From IMG/VR virus record IMGVR_UViG_3300047318_000369, positions 26,553 to 90,552 of that record: a DNA stretch of 64,000 nucleotides; one strand, given 5' to 3'. The notes below the pieces were generated by a model. It was not told where the DNA came from and did no database searches. It saw only the letters and a program-made list of their open reading frames with translations. The position numbers were made by a program, and so were the translations under genes. Positions 5,179-29,263 of the stretch are shown here, piece after piece (position 1 is the first letter of the stretch; the number at the start of each line of letters is the position of its first letter). The DNA comes from a virus.

Positions 5179-5460
5179 GATCACTTAGGGGATCGATAGG
5201 GGATGACACAGACGCCTAGCAAGGATCTCCGAAGGTTCCGCCAAGGAACTGCCACGGCGAAAGACGGCCCCGCCCACTCCTCGTCGAGGCCGTGATCTGC
5301 GAATATGCACACTCGCCGACTGGTCAGCGCGCTGGTGCAGTAGGGCCCTTCAGCTAACGGGTGTCTCGATTTGAGACACCCGTTTCAGCCTGGCTTGCCT
5401 TATGCAGGGCGGTTCGAGGCGCCCGACGGAGATCATTTAGGAGAGATTCCGGAGATCAAC
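5179..5460. other. Putative att (attP-like) region
   Basis: Downstream of integrase; core-like inverted repeat AACGGGTGTCT-CGATTTG-AGACACCCGTT (5356-5384); arm-like repeats TAGGGGAT x2 (5186, 5197) and a similar GATCA.TTAGG motif near 5431. Confidence 0.45.
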
Positions 5461-6682
5461 TCTCCCAGACATCCCGCCACCCCAGACTCCCCAGCGCCCT
5501 TACGAACAGCTCCTGCAGGCCATCCAGCCGCTCCTGCCGCATCGGCGGCGTCGCATGCTGGTAAGTGCCCTTGATGCCAGGGTACTTGTGCCCCGCCTGC
5601 TCGAACGCCAACACTGCCTTCACCCCGATCTGCGCCTGGTAGGTGTCGTGCGAGTGTCGGAGATCCCGCAGTGTCAGCCCCGGCTTGATCGGCTCCCACG
5701 CATCGGTACGGCCGTCCGCCACCTTGCGGATAAGTTCGGTCAACGTTCCCCGCGGCCACCAGCTGCCGTCCTTGCGCGCGAAGACGAAGTCGTGCGGCCA
5801 CTGGGTCAGGCGCGCTTCCAGCAGGGAGGCCAGGAACGGCGGAACGTCGATATCGCGGGCACTCTGCGCATTCTTCGTGGGCTCCACCCCGCGGAACCTG
5901 ATGCGCCGGCCGTCGTCGCCGTACTTGTAGTACTCGACGAGCGCGCCTGCGTCTTTGTCGATGCGCACGATGGGACAGGTGAACACACCGTCGTCGTGCC
6001 GCTGCCTGCGCTCCAGGAGGGTGTTGTGCCGGCGCAGCCCCAAGGCCTCCTCCACCCGGAGCCCGAGGAAGCCGATCGACAGCACGAGCATCCCGTCGAT
6101 CGGCCCCATCCGCCGCGCCATCTGCAGTACTTCCTCGGGGCGCGCCCACATCTCTTCGTGCTCGGTCTTGCGCTTCTTCGCCGCCTCTGCGGGCAGGCCG
6201 GTCAGGCGGCGCCCCTGAAGCGGGTTGACGGCCAGACAGCGTGCGTCGACGGCACCCATGAGGATCTGCGACATGAGCCTCACGCATATCTTCGTCGTGA
6301 CGTGAGCGCACGTCAGGCTGCGGGCCCACGCCTCTATTTCGAACCAGGTGATGGCGGCCAGCGGAACGTTCTCCCAGCGCGGCAGGACGGTCTGCGTCAG
6401 CCGTTCGCGCCGGTTCATGACGGTCTGGCCACGCGGCCTCTGGGCGGCCATCCACTCCTCGGCGAACTCGCCGAACGTCTTGCGTGAGAGCGCGGGGTCG
6501 ATCCACCGGCCGGCCCGCATGGCGGCCTCCTGCTCCTCGCCCCACTTCTCCGCGGTCCCCTTGGTGGGGAATCCGGGCTCGCTGCCCCACGTGCCGTCAG
6601 GTTTCTTGTACCTGGCACGCCAGGTGTACTTGGTGGTCCTCTTCCCGTCCCTGACCTTGTGGACCTTCTCGGCGTAGGCCAT
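5456..6682 (-). CDS. int: Tyrosine integrase
   Basis: N-terminal arm-binding region (WRARYKKPDG..GFPTK); GLRVEEALGL, TK, LRDLRHSH, AGH, TYQH motifs. Confidence 0.92.
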   Translation of the reverse strand: MAYAEKVHKVRDGKRTTKYTWRARYKKPDGTWGSEPGFPTKGTAEKWGEEQEAAMRAGRWIDPALSRKTFGEFAEEWMAAQRPRGQTVMNRRERLTQTVLPRWENVPLAAITWFEIEAWARSLTCAHVTTKICVRLMSQILMGAVDARCLAVNPLQGRRLTGLPAEAAKKRKTEHEEMWARPEEVLQMARRMGPIDGMLVLSIGFLGLRVEEALGLRRHNTLLERRQRHDDGVFTCPIVRIDKDAGALVEYYKYGDDGRRIRFRGVEPTKNAQSARDIDVPPFLASLLEARLTQWPHDFVFARKDGSWWPRGTLTELIRKVADGRTDAWEPIKPGLTLRDLRHSHDTYQAQIGVKAVLAFEQAGHKYPGIKGTYQHATPPMRQERLDGLQELFVRALGSLGWRDVWES

Positions 6683-7207: not shown

Positions 7208-7732
7208 TCAGGATTCTTGTGGGGTGTCTGATTCGCCGGGGATTGCCTGCAACTGGCGGCGCATCTTCCGCCACTTCTGCCAGAGCTCGTCGAGTTGCTC
7301 TTCGCTGAGATCCTCGGACCCCTTGAGGAGAACGATCAACCGGGTGTCGTCGTCGTTCTCGCCGCCGAGATTCACGACGGCGTGGTCGAGGGTCTTGCCG
7401 GAGCGGAGTTCCCGGTCGACGGCCGCCGGCAGGTCCGACTTAGGGTCGGCATCCCACTCGGAAACGGGCTGGGTGGCCGGTTCTGGCTCCTCGCCGCGCA
7501 GGATTCGGGCAGGGGAGTCCTCGGTCCAGCCGACGAGTCGAGCGTAGGCCCGCATAGTGCTGGTGACCTTGCCGTAGGGATTGCCATTGGGCTGCTTGCC
7601 CCGCTCGATGGCCTGGATGGGTGTGCGGGTCACAGACAGGCGTGTGGCGACCTCGACCTGCGTGAGGTCGGCCGCTTTGCGCGCTTCGGCGAACGCCGCA
7701 CCCAGGCGTTCCCAGTCTCGCTCTGACTCCAT
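7208..7732 (-). CDS. XRE-family immunity repressor (CI-like)
   Basis: ARKAADLTQVEVATRLSVTRTPIQAIERG; divergent from Cro-like gene; GGGGAG RBS. Confidence 0.85.
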   Translation of the reverse strand: MESERDWERLGAAFAEARKAADLTQVEVATRLSVTRTPIQAIERGKQPNGNPYGKVTSTMRAYARLVGWTEDSPARILRGEEPEPATQPVSEWDADPKSDLPAAVDRELRSGKTLDHAVVNLGGENDDDTRLIVLLKGSEDLSEEQLDELWQKWRKMRRQLQAIPGESDTPQES

Positions 7733-7948
7733 GTCTCCCCATCTTGCCCTACCTCCATGCAACCACCTAGCCGGGTTCAGGCCTTTTGACCTGCGACTGA
7801 GCGCACAAAAAGAGCGTTTGGGTTGCATGGGGCGTGTTACGCGTAACGCCACGTGAGCGACAGATGGCCCACCGTGGGCACTAAAAAAGTGCTATCAAGG
7901 CACTCGCAAGGCTTGCCCAAAGCACTCACAGGGGCTAGCTTTTGAGGC

Positions 7949-8149
7949 GTGAGACCGCACTCCAGCGCTATCCGCTTCAGAAGGAGGGCTCTAAAAATGA
8001 GCCTGCCCACGCTCTCCGTCAAGACGGGGATCCACAAGTCGCACCTCTCCCGAGTCGAACGCGGACTCGTCGGCCTGAGCGACAAGAACATCGAGAAAGT
8101 CGCGGACGCACTGGGTGTCACCCCCAACGACATCACCCACCAGGAGTAA
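7949..8149 (+). CDS. Cro-like HTH regulator
   Basis: RRALKMSLPTLSVKTGIHKSHLSRVERG. Confidence 0.85.
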   Translation: MRPHSSAIRFRRRALKMSLPTLSVKTGIHKSHLSRVERGLVGLSDKNIEKVADALGVTPNDITHQE

Positions 8150-8151
8150 CC

Positions 8152-8415
8152 GTGGCCCCCCGCAAGCTTCCCCCGGTCCGGGAGAACCTTCCCGCACCCA
8201 GCAGTCCCGAGGGCGAGCTCTTCCACTACCAGCCCACTGAGGCTGCGCTCTGGCTCCCCTTCAGCGCTCGCCAGCTCGCCCTGAAGGCGTTCGCCCGCGA
8301 AATCCCCCACGTGAACAACGGCAACAAGATCTGGTTCTCCGGGCTCAACATCCGGGCGATCACGGAGCAGTTCACGGTCCAGCCGTTCAACAAGCCGGCC
8401 CGCGCCGCCGCATGA
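8152..8415 (+). CDS. Excisionase-like DNA-binding protein
   Basis: AGGAG RBS; YQPTEAALWL..SARQL...AFAREIPHV..GNKIWFS resembles Xis/MerR-type wHTH. Confidence 0.55.
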   Translation: MAPRKLPPVRENLPAPSSPEGELFHYQPTEAALWLPFSARQLALKAFAREIPHVNNGNKIWFSGLNIRAITEQFTVQPFNKPARAAA

Positions 8416-8495
8416 CCGGCAAGGAGAAGGCCGGCCACCAGAGGCGACCGGCCGAAGCGACCCACCTGAACTCACCACAAGAAAGGAGGGGCCGC

Positions 8496-9056
8496 GTGTC
8501 CAGTGTGACAGACCGCGACTTCATCACCGAGATGGCCGAGGCGGTCGAGGGTGCGATTCCCGCAGGTGACTACGTGGCGTCGATGGTTGCCGCCGACCTC
8601 GTGGAGCACCTGAGGGCGCAGGACCCGGAACTGCTGGCCGGGTGGCTGGACTTGAAGGCGGCGGTGATCCTCGCGGACGTCGTGGCCCGCAGGTCGAACA
8701 GCAAGCGGCAGGCGGCCCGGATCGGCGCCCCGCGCAGGGCGTTCGCCGAGGCGGCCCGCAGTTTCGCCGGTGGTGACGTCACGGCGTTGCACCCCTTCGC
8801 CGCCGAGTACGTGGTCGACGAGGACAACACCCGTCGGACGGTGGCGAACATGACCGCCGACGACTGCCGGTTCGTCGCCTCGAAGTACGAGGACGCGGCG
8901 CGGATCTCGAAGTTGGAGGCGGCGTTCCACCGGGCGGTCGGCAAGAAGATCGGCGGCCAGTTGGTCGGCGAGGTCTTCACAGAGGCGCAGTACCTGGAGA
9001 TGTACCGCTCCGTCACCCAGCAGGGACCGCGAGCGATGCCGCGAGCAGCGGCATGA
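8496..9056 (+). CDS. Hypothetical helical protein directly upstream of the pentamer array
   Basis: GAAAGGAGG RBS before GTG 8496; stop overlaps start of array. Confidence 0.8.
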   Translation: MSSVTDRDFITEMAEAVEGAIPAGDYVASMVAADLVEHLRAQDPELLAGWLDLKAAVILADVVARRSNSKRQAARIGAPRRAFAEAARSFAGGDVTALHPFAAEYVVDEDNTRRTVANMTADDCRFVASKYEDAARISKLEAAFHRAVGKKIGGQLVGEVFTEAQYLEMYRSVTQQGPRAMPRAAA

Positions 9057-9795
9057 CGAAGAGCACCGGCCGACACACCGCGCCTCACACCTCCTCGACT
9101 ATTCACGCCCAGGCGTTTCCACCCCACTCGGAACGACTTCCCGACGCCACGCGACCGCACCTCATCCCAACTCTTGCCGACTTTTCTTTTCGCCACCGCG
9201 CCAGCCTCCACACCCCATGCCGACGGATCAACCCGGGCCGTTACTTCCCGCCCCTCGTCGACTACGCGCCCCTACGCAGGGCTTCCCGCTGCCGCCCCAC
9301 CCAGCCGACTTTTCTGCCCCCTCCTGCCCCGCGCAGTTCAGCGCTACCCATGCCGACTATCCGTCGCTTCACCAACCAGCCCGCTCTGACTCGCGTCGAC
9401 GTGCCAAGCCCACCCTCACCACGCCGTACCGACTGCCCGACACGAGGCCCGGCCACCCACCCCATCCCGTGCCGACTTCCCAATCCGGCTCGTCGCCGCA
9501 CAGTCCGAGCCAAGCCCTCCGACACCCCCGCCCCGGCCTGGACCAGCCACCCCGGCCCAGCTCCGACCGACTACCCGGTCCGGCTCGCCACCTCGCCACA
9601 CATCACGACTCGCTCCAACCGACATGCCATCTCGATCCGCCTCGACCCGAGCCCGCCCGCAACGACTGCTCTTCCCGTCTCGCCTCGGCGCCCACCGTCC
9701 CATGACGACTTGCCAACCCTCCGCAGGCCAGGCCTAGCCGACTACCCATTCCAACTCAGCCCACTCCGCCGCAGCCCACACGACCGCCCAGGTCA
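9054..9795 (+). repeat. Pentamer-phased array: 16 full CGAC(T)-initiated units plus partial end units; candidate guide-RNA array
   Basis: CGAC at 9096, 9134, 9178, 9221, 9259, 9306, 9354, 9397, 9430, 9473, 9520, 9568, 9620, 9663, 9706, 9739, 9781; spacings 33-52 in steps of ~5; C at position 4 of nearly every pentamer. Confidence 0.9.
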
Positions 9796-9813
9796 CCGAA
9801 AGGAACTCACCAC

Positions 9814-10485
9814 ATGACCAGCATCTTCGCCAGCTTCACCGACAAGGCGTGGCCCCACCGCTTCCACGGCACCATCCGCGTGAAGAACATCGCAGGCGGC
9901 ACGCCGACTGACCCGAAGGTCGCCGAGGGCTGGCTGCGAACCAAACTCGCCGACAAGGACGACCTGATCCGCGAGATGGTCGCCCAGACCATGGTCGACC
10001 GAGGCGTCACCGCCGACGAGGCCGCGAAGCTCGTCGACACCAACAAGCACCTCAACGGCTTCCGTCGCGACGAGGACGGCTTGTACATCGAAGGCCGCCA
10101 GTTGAAGGCCGCGATCAAGGAAGCCGCGTCCGTCGCCCGCTCCGTCGACAAGCTGAAGTCCCGCTGGGGCTCCACCAACAAGGGCGTCCAAGGCTTCGTC
10201 GCCGAACACATCATGGTCGTCGAGGACAAGCTCCACCTCGGCGTCACCGAGCCCACCGGCGTCCTCCAGTCCTTCCCGAAGAACCCGCGCACCGGCCAAA
10301 CCGGTATCCAGTACACGGAGTTCATCGAGACCGCCGAGTTCGACTTCACGGTCATCTCCGACTACGCGTTCACCGACGAAGAGTGGGCCATGCTCTGGCT
10401 CACCGGCGAACAGCAGGGCGTCGGCGCTTCCCGCTCGCAGGGCTTCGGCAGGTACGAGGTCATCAAGTGGGAGGCCACCGCATGA
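9814..10485 (+). CDS. Stand-alone Cas7/RAMP-superfamily-like protein
   Basis: YIEGRQLKAAIKEAA resembles the RAMP (I/L)PGSSLKGALR helix; C-terminal Gly-rich loop GVGASRSQGFGRYEV; GAAAGGA RBS; 223 aa. Confidence 0.75.
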   Translation: MTSIFASFTDKAWPHRFHGTIRVKNIAGGTPTDPKVAEGWLRTKLADKDDLIREMVAQTMVDRGVTADEAAKLVDTNKHLNGFRRDEDGLYIEGRQLKAAIKEAASVARSVDKLKSRWGSTNKGVQGFVAEHIMVVEDKLHLGVTEPTGVLQSFPKNPRTGQTGIQYTEFIETAEFDFTVISDYAFTDEEWAMLWLTGEQQGVGASRSQGFGRYEVIKWEATA

Positions 10486-28443: not shown

Positions 28444-28510
28444 GCCGAGCCCGCCCCCGCAGCCCACACCACCCCGCCCCACCCACCCGACAGAACGGAA
28501 ACACGGACAA

Positions 28511-28882
28511 ATGACCGCCGCTCCCGAGCCCACCATCCAACCCACCCGCTACGTCATCTCCTGCCTGCCCGAAGGCCACGACGAGCGGTTCACGTACACC
28601 GTGCAGGTCGAGTACCGGTGCGACGACCTGTGGGCCGTGCGCTGCCGCAGCCGATTCCTCGGCGCCGACGGCACCTGGTCGCACGGCTTCGCCTGGAGCG
28701 AGGGCCCCGACGAGCCCGCCACCGAGGCCGAGATGGACAGCTTCGACACGGAGCAGGCCGTCTGGCTGGCCGCGCACCGCTTCGACCACGACACGGCACT
28801 ACGGCTGGCCAGGGAGCAGGCGCCGCTGCTCGTGTACTGCGGACGCACCGTTGCCGACGCCCTCGCCGCCACCCCCGTCTGA
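28511..28882 (+). CDS. Hypothetical protein
   Basis: Typical codon usage. Confidence 0.6.
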   Translation: MTAAPEPTIQPTRYVISCLPEGHDERFTYTVQVEYRCDDLWAVRCRSRFLGADGTWSHGFAWSEGPDEPATEAEMDSFDTEQAVWLAAHRFDHDTALRLAREQAPLLVYCGRTVADALAATPV

Positions 28883-28936
28883 GCCTGTTCCCGTCGCACC
28901 CCAACCCGCCCAACCAGCCGGAAGGAACCACCCACC

Positions 28937-29263
28937 ATGACCAGCACGCCCGCTCCCGACACGTCGCTCGCCGCCGCAGTCTCCGAAGGCCTCGCCCACG
29001 CCGCCCACCTCGTCGGCCGCTTCGGCTGGCACCCGCCCGGCCCGAACGACAGCCACCTCAACATCGGCACCACGCTGAACCTGGCCGCCTGCAAGACCGC
29101 CCCACTGCATGGCCAGCCGGTGCACGACGTGCAGGCGGTCATGGCCCACAGGCTCAGCCGCCATCTCGGCTGCGGCCTTGTCGAGTGGGAGGACAGCGAC
29201 GGCCTGAACGTGGCCCGCGTGGTTGAGGCGCTCCGGGATGCCAGCCGGAAAGCCCCCGCCTGA
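28937..29263 (+). CDS. Hypothetical protein
   Basis: GAAGGA RBS. Confidence 0.6.
   Translation: MTSTPAPDTSLAAAVSEGLAHAAHLVGRFGWHPPGPNDSHLNIGTTLNLAACKTAPLHGQPVHDVQAVMAHRLSRHLGCGLVEWEDSDGLNVARVVEALRDASRKAPA

What the first reader, a model, noticed from the sequence alone, without database searches (positions are those of the whole stretch)
8496..10485. Candidate phage RNA-guided system: 5-nt-phased repeat array plus a solitary Cas7/RAMP-like protein
Seen: a ~740-bp patterned array (9054-9795) lies immediately 5' of a 223-aa gene with RAMP hallmarks (YIEGRQLKAAIKEAA helix, C-terminal Gly-rich loop GVGASRSQGFGRY). An unknown 186-aa gene lies on the other side. No cas1/2/3/5/6/8/10 and no canonical CRISPR are present in the window. 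The module sits right after cro/xis, so it is probably expressed early. Established: Cas7-group RAMPs polymerise along guide RNA with a fixed nucleotide step. Inference: each array unit is one RNA, each pentamer binds one protomer, and variable positions specify a target. With no nuclease nearby, the likely output is binding or repression, for example of competing phages or host defence genes. From memory, the architecture resembles recently reported phage VIPR systems (RAMP plus GGY/NN pentamer RNAs), but the motif here is C-based with a CGAC punctuation, so it may be a distinct subtype. I cannot verify that relationship here.
Basis: partly seen in the sequence, partly recalled or inferred. 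Interest (0 to 1): 0.97.

Follow-up and report, generated by a model that had tools for sequence, protein, structure and literature searches.

The report
Actinophage VIPR guide-RNA system
A Streptomyces prophage carries a small CRISPR-like protein, a partner gene and about twenty short guides written in five-letter steps; it is a divergent member of the VIPR systems described in 2026, and one guide spells the active-site motif of rival elements' integrase genes.

Summary
Window 9054-9795 is 49% C and has a strong 5-nt period found nowhere else in the 64 kb. The 223-aa protein (9814-10485) folds as a Cas7-type RAMP. Its family is profile-homologous to the SUSP1 Vipr family, PDB 36pp.

The array consists of units of 5n+3 nt. 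Each pentamer has one near-invariant base, two biased bases and two free NN. Gene, array and a conserved 186-aa partner travel together in most related loci.

Under the published one-base-skip rule, the window's longest unit spells (M/I)YLLRHGH, an integrase motif, in four viral contigs and one Streptomyces genome. Other family guides hit a phage helicase, a small phage ORF and vipr itself. Statistics are modest, and three other window guides found nothing.

So this is a VIPR system, a kind known from 2026 preprints. It differs in unit architecture, lacks the G-binding residues, has an unrelated partner gene, and its fixed letters are C on the gene strand.

Which strand is the RNA remains unresolved. 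This scan has noted the same clade before on other DNA.

The parts
8496..9056 (+). Conserved 186-aa partner gene, a candidate Vipr accessory protein. It is mostly helical with no known fold or family.
   Evidence: ORF. A homologue lies upstream on the same strand in 30 of 31 related loci that have at least 1 kb of upstream flank; L041 is the exception. There are no significant Pfam, PHROG or NCBIfam hits; the only PADLOC hit is JAB at E 0.031. The AF2 model has pLDDT 83.9 and is mostly helical. Foldseek against PDB gives 0 matches at E<=0.001. hhalign finds no similarity to SUSP1 vap1, probability 0.2%.
9054..9795 (.). Guide array with about 23 GTCG/CGAC-delimited units, 9 of them in a clean register. 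Pentamer code read on the - strand: G(95-97%) R g N N. Read on the + strand: N N c Y C. Junction on the - strand: ...GGG-WA|GTC|GG...
   Evidence: No Rfam family matches; the only hit has E 0.34 and is below the gathering score. It is not coding: there is no lag-3 signal, and a spanning ORF is not conserved.
9310..9357 (-). 48-nt unit with NN string AT TA CT CT CG CA GG CA (AA). Under the 1-nt skip rule it reads (M/I)-Y-L-L-R-H-G-H-(K), the catalytic-box motif of foreign tyrosine integrases.
   Evidence: Unit listed. There are 14 exact IMG/VR matches. Four (L054, L056, L057, L059) plus a Streptomyces genome (L045) lie in integrase genes, in the frame where the skipped base is the wobble base. 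These proteins match phrog_1 integrase at E 5e-25 and 1.5e-22. The ninth pair also matches in L045, L054 and L056. The window's own integrase matches only 10 of 18 nt.
9814..10485 (+). vipr-like gene encoding a 223-aa minimal Cas7-type RAMP.
   Evidence: AF2 pLDDT 76.1. Foldseek against PDB gives 95 hits at E<=1e-3, the top ones Csm3 and type VII Cas7 at 2e-6. VIA Z is 9.4-9.8. hhalign to the SUSP1 Vipr family gives probability 93.7%, E 1.8e-7 over 122 columns. The family has 1477 clusters at 90% identity and 605 at 50% identity, and every listed member that carries a source name is called hypothetical.
9916..9935 (+). Site inside vipr (codons K-V-A-E-G-W-L) that a guide of a related phage (L020) matches 7 of 7 NN pairs under the skip rule.
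   Evidence: The same guide matches the vipr genes of 16 sources, its own included.
7208..8149 (.). Context: divergent HTH pair of the immunity region. The repressor-like gene is at 7208-7852 on the - strand and the cro-like gene at 7949-8149 on the + strand, directly upstream of the module.
   Evidence: Pfam HTH_31 at 2.4e-9 and HTH_3 at 6.3e-10.
5456..6682 (-). Context: the prophage's own tyrosine-integrase-like gene. The window's integrase-motif guide does not target it.
   Evidence: Phage_int_M at E 0.0056, below the Pfam cut-off. Its LRDLRHSH site matches 10 of 18 guide nucleotides.

Best explanation
This is a VIPR-family RNA-guided DNA-binding module of a temperate Streptomyces phage.

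Proposed mechanism. The early operon reads cro-like gene, 186-aa partner, array, vipr. It yields an RNA made of about 20 short units. Vipr protomers are inferred to polymerise along each unit, one protomer per pentamer. They would grip the three fixed or biased letters and present the two free letters. The presented dinucleotides read double-stranded DNA with one target base skipped per step, so they match codon positions 1-2 and ignore the wobble base. Binding is expected to silence transcription of genes of rival mobile elements. For the window's longest unit, the target is the catalytic box of a foreign integrase family.

Which strand is the RNA. I favour, at about 55:45, that the array is transcribed with the operon. 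In that case the RNA is C-rich (N-N-c-Y-C), a mirror of the published G-G-Y/N-N code.

What is shown: the fold, the homology, the array grammar, the conserved linkage and the in-silico targets.

What is inferred: transcription, filament assembly, silencing and the RNA strand.
For: Fold. Cas7-type RAMPs fill the top ranks of both methods. Foldseek gives E 2e-6 and 95 hits at E<=1e-3. VIA gives Z 9.4-9.8, and all 50 rows are CRISPR RAMP effector entries (all but two titled as such).

Homology. A profile of 58 family members against a profile of 31 SUSP1-Vipr relatives gives probability 93.7%, E 1.8e-7 over 122 columns. The alignment covers helix-1 and the G-loop. SUSP1 Vipr is the solved protein 36pp.

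Array grammar from 178 units of 34 sources. One base is 95-97% fixed every 5 nt, two are biased and two are near-uniform. Of 410 head-to-head distances of 20 nt or more, 205 are 3 mod 5.

Linkage.
- 10 of 10 genome loci have the array just upstream of the gene and nowhere else.
- Of 27 viral loci with flank, 24 have it directly upstream, 1 has it beyond the partner gene and 2 lack it there.
- The partner gene is present in 30 of 31 loci.

Targets under skip-1.
- The window unit hits integrase genes in 4 viral contigs and 1 genome.
- Two of four 20-nt guides from related loci each have exactly one IMG/VR match. Both are in the wobble frame of real phage genes: a helicase at motif VI (phrog_16, 7.6e-96) and a 94-aa ORF.
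- Background estimated from the 16-nt scan is 14/256 = 0.055 per pattern, which gives a Poisson P of about 0.02.
- One guide matches vipr genes in 16 sources.
- Recombinase active-site targets and vipr targets are both in print for VIPR (passages read).

Evidence for the sense strand.
- Every array seen is C-rich on the gene strand, even where its position differs: L030, L039, L044 and Mae-JY09.
- Arrays abut the preceding stop codon (TGACTACCC) and the next RBS, leaving no room for their own signals.
- In Mae-JY09 the order is vipr, array, GC hairpin, genome end.
- SUSP1 vrRNAs are co-oriented with vipr.
Against: - No RNA data exist, so transcription, processing and binding are all inferred.
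- All published vrRNA consensus forms are G-based: GGY/NN, NNNGG, YNNNG, NNNNG (sections read). That fits the antisense strand here.
- The SUSP1 residues that hold G1 and G2 (D177, W178, R138) are not kept. This shows divergence but does not say what is bound instead.
- The profile match covers only the C-terminal two-thirds of the protein.
- Target statistics are thin. In a 615-kb local test there was no enrichment counted per guide: for n=7, 12 guides had hits against 11.1 in shuffles. Sixteen of the 20 perfect skip-1 hits came from one guide.
- Two of four 20-nt guides found nothing.
- Three other window guides found nothing in the four integrase-bearing records.
- Only 1 of 401 Streptomyces genomes holds the integrase match.
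- No promoter or terminator consensus supports either strand.
- A long untranslated C-rich RNA should attract Rho, which argues against the sense reading. This point rests on established knowledge of rut sites and was not tested here.
Confidence: 0.8

Rival explanations
1. This is the same VIPR system, but the guides are transcribed from the strand opposite to vipr. The RNA is then G-anchored (G-R-g-N-N). It would be one of the alternative consensus forms (NNNNG or NNNGG), and possibly a 'staggered array', both already listed in the first VIPR preprint. In that case the locus is an ordinary member of a published type.
For: - Read on the minus strand, units start with GTCGG and carry an invariant G every 5 nt. 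The order fixed-fixed-biased-N-N has the same polarity as G1-G2-Y3-N4-N5.
- The preprint reports NNNGG, YNNNG and NNNNG repeats and staggered arrays (sections 9 and 20 and the legend of fig. S18 read).
- The G-loop arginine (R179 in SUSP1, R207 here) is kept.
- G-rich RNA is not a Rho substrate (established knowledge, not tested here).
Against: - A minus-strand promoter would have to lie inside the first codons of vipr, or of whichever gene follows each array. In L044 three arrays are each followed within about 20-40 nt by an RBS and start codon of a plus-strand gene.
- No conserved hairpin or terminator separates the array from the partner gene, so the transcript would run antisense into it.
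- Orientation never flips although the array's position does.
- D177 and W178, which read the guanines in SUSP1, are Ala and Ser here.
Confidence: 0.4
2. The array acts as DNA or as a cis-acting leader rather than as guides. Examples would be iterons, a Rho-loading (rut) or attenuator leader that meters vipr expression, or a recombination hot spot. The RAMP would then bind some other RNA.
For: - C-rich, G-poor untranslated sequence resembles rut sites (established knowledge, not tested here).
- Most window units have no identified target.
Against: - A leader does not need one fixed base per 5 nt with two free positions, nor 5n+3 units kept across proteins 46-98% identical.
- Arrays also lie downstream of vipr, or after other genes.
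- The free positions spell conserved protein motifs of foreign phage genes in the wobble frame.
Confidence: 0.05
3. The array is a protein-coding gene. ORF 9053-9817 encodes a 254-aa proline-rich product and overlaps both neighbours by ATGA.
For: One frame is open across the whole gap, and ATGA overlaps sit at both ends.
Against: - There is no period-3 signal: lag 3 equals the shuffle mean, while lag 5 is about 6 sd above it.
- Units of 5n+3 nt cannot keep a frame.
- In 7 of 27 sources (L008, L009, L012, L020, L021, L023, L039) no frame stays open for more than 250 nt up to vipr, and the open frame differs between loci.
- Stop codons are rare in 49% C sequence anyway.
Confidence: 0.02

Closest known systems
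Type II VIPR of Escherichia phage SUSP1 (Vipr, PDB 36pp; vap1; four vrRNAs). Sources: bioRxiv 10.64898/2026.04.26.720920, 10.64898/2026.04.26.720927 and 10.64898/2026.10.15.759431. I read Results, Discussion and two Methods sections of the first, one Results section of the second, and passages of the third.
   Same: - A minimal Cas7-like RAMP about 200 aa long, with profile homology over helix-1 and the G-loop.
- A two-gene module with long non-coding pentamer-repeat tracts in a phage.
- A repeat of three fixed or biased letters plus two free letters.
- Targets read with one skipped base that falls on the wobble position, including a recombinase catalytic motif and vipr genes.
   Different: - SUSP1 repeats are YNNGG on the vipr strand, with 9-16 repeats plus a structured 3' tail of about 40 nt and their own promoter. 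Here the units have 5-10 pentamers, no tail and a 3-nt junction, lie flush with the neighbouring genes, and the fixed letter is C on the vipr strand.
- D177, W178 and R138 are not conserved.
- The partner gene is unrelated to vap1.
- The host is a high-GC actinomycete and the phage is temperate.
VIPR systems with 'staggered' arrays and alternative repeat consensus (NNNGG, YNNNG, NNNNG) in the seven-type classification of 10.64898/2026.04.26.720920. I read the text and the legend of fig. S18.
   Same: Back-to-back units without spacers, in which the end of one marks the start of the next. Only one or two fixed G per pentamer if read on the minus strand.
   Different: I could not see whether this actinomycete clade is among the 667 classified systems, which type it would be, or which strand the authors assign. 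'Actino' and 'Streptomyces' occur 0 times in the main text. The preprint says staggered arrays were not among the architectures confirmed by small-RNA sequencing.
Cas7-group RAMPs of class 1 CRISPR effectors (Csm3, Cmr4, type VII Cas7).
   Same: Closest solved folds. VIA Z is 9.4-9.8 with rmsd 3.1-4.5 over 130-158 residues. Weak sequence echoes of Csm3 helix-1 and the Cas6 G-loop, at E 0.004-0.011.
   Different: No CRISPR repeats or cas partners were seen next to the gene. Identity is only 12-16%. Guides are pentamer-coded rather than contiguous spacers.

Membership tests
VIPR (Vipr + vrRNA) | Minimal RAMP protein: single RRM core, helix-1, glycine-rich loop and thumb, with a Cas7-like fold. 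| tested here: met
   AF2 model. Foldseek to Csm3 and type VII Cas7 at E 2e-6. VIA Z 9.4-9.8.
VIPR (Vipr + vrRNA) | Homology to an experimentally characterised Vipr (SUSP1, PDB 36pp). | tested here: met
   hhalign of A2 against A3 gives probability 93.7%, E 1.8e-7 over 122 columns. 36pp is confirmed as SUSP1 Vipr. The N-terminal third is not aligned.
VIPR (Vipr + vrRNA) | Tandem pentanucleotide repeats with a fixed triplet and hypervariable NN, beside the gene. | tested here: met
   Conserved linkage across loci.
VIPR (Vipr + vrRNA) | GGY fixed triplet, on the same strand as vipr, as in the type II reference. | tested here: not met
   Here the triplet is G-R-g on the opposite strand, or c-Y-C on the gene strand. 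SUSP1 has YNNGG on the vipr strand.
VIPR (Vipr + vrRNA) | Guanine-contacting residues H17, D177, W178 and R138 of SUSP1 Vipr. | tested here: not met
   The aligned G-loop is GVGDWRPRFGRF in SUSP1 and GVGASRSQGFGRY here. D becomes A, W becomes S, and R179 is kept as R207. The column of R138 is not basic, and the H17 region is unaligned (residue roles).
VIPR (Vipr + vrRNA) | Structured, invariant 3' tail after the repeat tract (type II). | tested here: not met
   Units abut through a 3-nt junction with no tail.
VIPR (Vipr + vrRNA) | Conserved accessory gene (vap) in a minimal operon. | tested here: met
   A 186-aa partner is present in 30 of 31 loci. It is unrelated to vap1 and has no known fold.
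VIPR (Vipr + vrRNA) | Targets read by NN with a 1-nt skip, aligned to the wobble position, in rival mobile elements. | tested here: met
   In silico only: integrase, helicase, a small ORF and vipr.
VIPR (Vipr + vrRNA) | vrRNA expression, co-purification with Vipr, dsDNA binding and silencing. | not testable with these tools
   No transcriptome or biochemical data are available here.
VIPR (Vipr + vrRNA) | Non-CRISPR context: no cas1/2/3 genes and no CRISPR array. | tested here: inconclusive
   Only the ORFs between about 5.4 and 11.1 kb were scanned, and none is a cas gene. The rest of the window was not scanned.
Class 1 CRISPR-Cas effector (Cas7 subunit) | Cas7 fold. | tested here: met
Class 1 CRISPR-Cas effector (Cas7 subunit) | Adjacent CRISPR repeat-spacer array and partner cas genes (Cas5, large subunit, Cas6). 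| tested here: not met
   The neighbours are a helical 186-aa protein and small unknown ORFs. The adjacent repeat is pentamer-coded and is not repeat-spacer.

The most novel reading that the evidence does not exclude
This actinophage clade may use a mirror-image VIPR code. The guides would be the C-rich sense strand, co-transcribed inside the early operon as back-to-back 5n+3-nt units. A Vipr that has lost the guanine-binding Asp, Trp and Arg would grip c-Y-C triplets instead of G-G-Y. The protein-RNA 'grip' of this guide class would then be naturally re-writable while the one-base-skip readout stays the same.
Probability: 0.5. Interest if true: 0.7.

Novelty: new variant of a known kind. Interest (0 to 1): 0.5.

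Why it matters
VIPR systems were described only in 2026 and have been characterised in one clade, from E. coli and Pseudomonas phages.

This locus extends the family to temperate Streptomyces phages. It offers a very compact guide format of 33-53 nt with no tail. It has a partner protein of unknown fold. It also provides a concrete, testable natural target: the LLRHGH box of a rival integrase.

If the guides prove to be the C-rich strand, that would show the fixed 'handle' letters of pentamer-coded guides can be swapped. This bears on how the code evolved and on engineering orthogonal VIPR tools.

If the guides are the G-rich antisense strand, the locus is an ordinary member of an already listed variant.

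Tried and rejected
Searches on the proteins that gave nothing.
- Pfam, PHROGs and NCBIfam on the RAMP gave nothing significant. The best PHROG hit was phrog_4652 at E 0.057.
- A PDB sequence search with the protein and with the family profile gave only chance-level rows. The SUSP1 structure 36pp did not appear in the fold library, which was released up to 8 April 2026. A direct fold comparison with a solved Vipr was therefore not possible.
- The partner protein has no family, no Foldseek match and no Atlas lead.

The coding reading of the array was rejected.

Strand signals.
- A consensus scan found no sigma-70 promoter. The terminator-like hairpins it found were not above shuffles.
- The hairpin at 8429-8453 is not conserved upstream of the partner gene in other loci (my simple stem finder also missed the window's own bulged hairpin).
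- There is no conserved hairpin at the boundary between the partner gene and the array.

An apparent inverted array in L041 (4500-4870, G-rich, strong period 5) turned out to be a 15-nt-period pentapeptide-repeat gene.

Local target test on 615 kb.
- The excess of perfect skip-1 hits (20, against 2-6 for other skips and 3-4 in shuffles) comes mostly from one guide.
- Per guide there is no enrichment at n=6 or n=7. At n=8 it is 2 guides against 0.4 expected.

Other target searches.
- The window's 16-nt pattern was absent from the genome that holds the closest relative, G001.
- Three 14-nt window guides were absent from the four integrase-bearing viral records.
- I could not test G:U wobble asymmetry to assign the strand, because all the matches found are perfect.

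What I could not see. Supplementary tables of the preprints are closed, so I cannot tell whether relatives such as WP_042408135.1 are already classified. Main-text searches for 'Actino' and 'Streptomyces' gave 0 occurrences in the first and third preprints. Library searches found only the three VIPR preprints.
Full report
WHAT IS THERE

The window is a high-GC temperate phage record. It covers bases 26553-90552 of a 90,552-base virus record. Its closest genomic relative lies in a Streptomyces genome, with 98% protein identity (L001).

The gene order around the finding is as follows:
- an integrase-like gene at 5456-6682 on the minus strand;
- a repressor-like HTH gene at 7208-7852 on the minus strand;
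- a cro-like HTH gene at 7949-8149 on the plus strand;
- a 186-aa gene at 8496-9056;
- a 757-nt gap;
- a 223-aa gene at 9814-10485.

The gap is 49% C. Same-base autocorrelation is 0.42 at lag 5 and 0.396 at lag 10, against 0.326 +/- 0.015 in shuffles. There is no lag-3 signal. No other part of the 64 kb reaches the period-5 score of this stretch.

GRAMMAR OF THE ARRAY

Read on the minus strand, the gap breaks into units that begin with GTCG(G). I pooled the window with 36 related loci.
- Of 410 head-to-head distances of 20 nt or more, 205 are 3 mod 5, with peaks at 33, 38, 43, 48 and 53 nt.
- A logo built from 178 such units shows one G at 95-97% every fifth base. The next base is G at 47-78% (otherwise mostly A). 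The third is G at about 60%. The last two positions are near-uniform.
- Units join through ...G-g-g-W-A | G-T-C | G-g..., which is a 3-nt jump of register.
- On the gene strand the same code reads N-N-c-Y-C, with CGAC-TWCCC junctions.

In the window, 9 units are in a clean register and 12 of 23 distances are 3 mod 5. The window's array is therefore somewhat degenerate. No Rfam family matches it.

THE PROTEIN

No Pfam family matches it. The AlphaFold model has pLDDT 76.1, with low confidence at residues 45-80. It has the strand-helix-strand core, a long helix at 94-110 (the YIEGRQLKAAIKEAA motif) and a C-terminal glycine loop followed by a strand.
- Foldseek against PDB gives 95 matches at E<=0.001. 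The best are Csm3 and type VII Cas7, at 2e-6.
- An independent all-against-representatives alignment puts Cas7-type RAMPs on top, with Z up to 9.4.
- A second look gives Z 7.9-9.8 for 50 CRISPR RAMP effector entries (all but two titled as such).
- Viral predicted structures include phage proteins annotated as RAMPs, at E 5.7e-11 to 4e-7.

The family is large: 1477 clusters at 90% identity and 605 at 50% identity have E<=0.001. Every listed member that carries a source name is called hypothetical.

RELATION TO VIPR

The library holds three 2026 preprints on Viral Interference Programmable Repeat systems. I read the Results, Discussion and two Methods sections of the first, one Results section of the second and passages of the third.

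According to these, VIPR consists of a minimal RAMP (Vipr), usually one accessory gene (vap), and vrRNAs of 9-16 YNNGG repeats plus a 3' tail. One protomer binds each repeat and sequesters GGY. The NN dinucleotides read double-stranded DNA with one base skipped per step, usually the wobble base. Seven types exist, with alternative consensus forms (NNNGG, YNNNG, NNNNG) and 'staggered' arrays.

I fetched phage SUSP1 and located its locus. The vipr gene is at 28474-29061, with YNNGG runs on the same strand upstream and downstream. A clear promoter lies in front of vrRNA1, and structured tails follow the repeats. Its Vipr is the solved chain 36pp.

A 58-sequence profile of my family aligns to a 31-sequence profile of SUSP1-Vipr relatives with probability 93.7% and E 1.8e-7 over 122 columns. 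The alignment runs from helix-1 through the G-loop. The single-sequence comparison already aligned the same motifs.

Of the residues that hold the two guanines in SUSP1 (H17, D177, W178, R138), D177 and W178 are Ala and Ser here. The column of R138 is not basic. R179 is kept as the invariant R207.

LINKAGE OF GENE, ARRAY AND PARTNER

- All 10 genome loci carry a period-5, C-rich stretch immediately upstream of the gene and nowhere else in about 8 kb. They come from Streptomyces, Streptacidiphilus, Actinomadura, Nocardiopsis, Streptosporangium, Pedococcus and MAGs, at 59-98% identity.
- Of 31 viral loci, 27 have usable upstream flank. Of these, 24 have the array directly upstream (21 at the 300-nt window and 3 more at 200 nt). 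One (L030) has it beyond the partner gene. Two (L034, L036) lack it there.
- The 186-aa gene has a homologue upstream on the same strand in 30 of 31 loci with enough flank.
- Its model is mostly helical (pLDDT 83.9). It has no Foldseek match and no similarity to SUSP1 vap1.
- A distant relative in a 58%-GC viral contig (L044) has three arrays between plus-strand genes.
- The only cultured-phage hit, a record named Microcystis phage Mae-JY09 (32% identity, E 1e-28), has the order partner-sized gene (similarity to the window's 186-aa partner not tested), vipr, array, GC hairpin, genome end.

DO THE FREE LETTERS SPELL TARGETS?

I extracted 188 clean units and tested skip rules 0-3 against 615 kb of fetched DNA with the arrays masked.
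- Perfect skip-1 hits numbered 20, against 2-6 for the other rules and 3-4 for shuffled guides.
- However, 16 of the 20 come from one 43-nt unit of locus L020. Its seven NN pairs match codons (K/N)-V-A-E-G-W-L of vipr genes in 16 sources. These include its own gene and window 9916-9935.
- Counted per guide there is no enrichment at 6 or 7 pairs. At 8 pairs it is 2 guides against 0.4 expected.

I then spent the remaining IMG/VR scans on exact skip-1 patterns.
- Two of the four guides scanned (each with 10 NN pairs, 20 specified bases) each found exactly one place. The other two found none.
- Both hits lie in real genes, in the frame where NN are codon positions 1-2. One is a phage DNA helicase at motif VI, YVQMVGRVLR (phrog_16, E 7.6e-96). 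The other is codons 10-19 of a 94-aa ORF.
- The window's own longest unit (9310-9357, 8 pairs) found 14 places. That puts the background for a 20-base pattern at about 14/256 = 0.055. Two hits from four patterns then has a Poisson P of about 0.02, before counting the frame.
- Four of those 14 places have 66-70% GC. Together with the single hit among 401 Streptomyces genomes, they lie in homologous integrase genes at the motif (M/I)YLLRHGH, again in the wobble frame. These proteins match phrog_1 integrase at E 5e-25 and 1.5e-22, and one has Phage_int_SAM_3.
- In three of the five, the ninth pair (AA) matches too.
- The window's own integrase matches only 10 of 18 bases at the homologous site.
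- Three other window guides found nothing in the four integrase-bearing records.

Both target classes have precedents in print for SUSP1-type VIPR: a recombinase active site and vipr genes, each wobble-aligned.

WHICH STRAND IS THE RNA?

This is unresolved.

For the antisense, G-anchored reading:
- Every published consensus is G-based.
- The order of fixed and free letters then matches GGY/NN.

For the sense, C-anchored reading:
- The arrays are C-rich on the gene strand in every locus, even where the array has moved (L030, L039, L044, Mae-JY09).
- They start at, or overlap, the stop codon of the preceding gene (TGACTACCC in six loci). They end 20-45 nt before the next start codon, leaving no room for an antisense promoter or terminator.
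- The one terminal array is followed by a hairpin on the gene strand side.
- SUSP1's vrRNAs are co-oriented with vipr.
- The guanine-reading residues are lost.

Consensus scans for promoters and terminators were uninformative. Because a double-stranded target is the same for a guide and its complement, the target matches cannot decide. I put the sense reading at about 55%.

RIVALS

- A protein-coding reading of the gap (ORF 9053-9817) fails. There is no period 3, units of 5n+3 nt cannot keep a frame, and the frame is not conserved.
- A purely cis-acting leader or DNA element does not explain free dinucleotides that spell foreign protein motifs.

VERDICT

The kind is known from 2026 preprints. 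This clade differs in repeat letters and strand, unit architecture, G-loop residues and partner gene, so I file it as a new variant of a known kind.

There is a caveat. The preprint's closed tables may already list this clade among its seven types.

Earlier notes of this scan describe the same actinophage clade on other DNA with similar conclusions. They are unchecked AI notes, and I give them no weight as evidence.

Noticed in passing
L020:2928-2970 (guide) and L020:3097-3116 (target): The unit nearest to vipr in this related viral contig matches its own vipr gene 7 of 7 NN pairs under the skip rule, and the vipr genes of 15 other sources as well. It could be autoregulation or an anti-VIPR guide. 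The first preprint reports no self-targeting in the types its authors examined.
   Followed up: partly
window 8429-8453: An imperfect GC-rich hairpin lies between the unnamed ORF ending at 8415 and the 186-aa gene. On the minus strand a T-rich tail follows it, so it looks like a terminator there. It is not conserved at this place in related loci.
   Followed up: partly
window 9053-9817: A 254-aa open frame spans the whole array and overlaps both neighbours by ATGA. It looks like a by-product of the C-rich composition, since neither the frame nor its openness is conserved.
   Followed up: yes
window 9224, 9357, 9709 (minus-strand unit heads): Three of the nine clean units begin GTCG(G/T)-CATGG, so the first free pair is AT followed by the fixed G, which reads like a start codon. 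The integrase match indeed starts at ATG or ATC. The family-wide logo shows no such bias.
   Followed up: no
L046 (PP395641.1 31749-38976): The record named Microcystis phage Mae-JY09 has 73% GC in this stretch and carries the actinophage-type module at its right end. From recall, Microcystis genomes are far lower in GC, so the host assignment looks odd.
   Followed up: no
L041:4600-4870: A 15-nt tandem repeat (GACCTGTACGGGGCG-like) lies inside a 705-nt ORF. It is a pentapeptide-repeat protein gene downstream of vipr in a related viral contig, and it mimics a period-5 array.
   Followed up: yes
L002:3500-3790: Part of the array of the Streptacidiphilus carbonis locus reads as a run of N, meaning it is masked or withheld in the collection. 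Its unit count is therefore incomplete.
   Followed up: no
L062:1252-1274: The window's integrase-motif pattern also matches IYLLRHGQ at the N-terminus of a protein that looks like a histidine phosphatase, in a 58%-GC viral contig. This is probably a chance convergence on an RHG motif.
   Followed up: no
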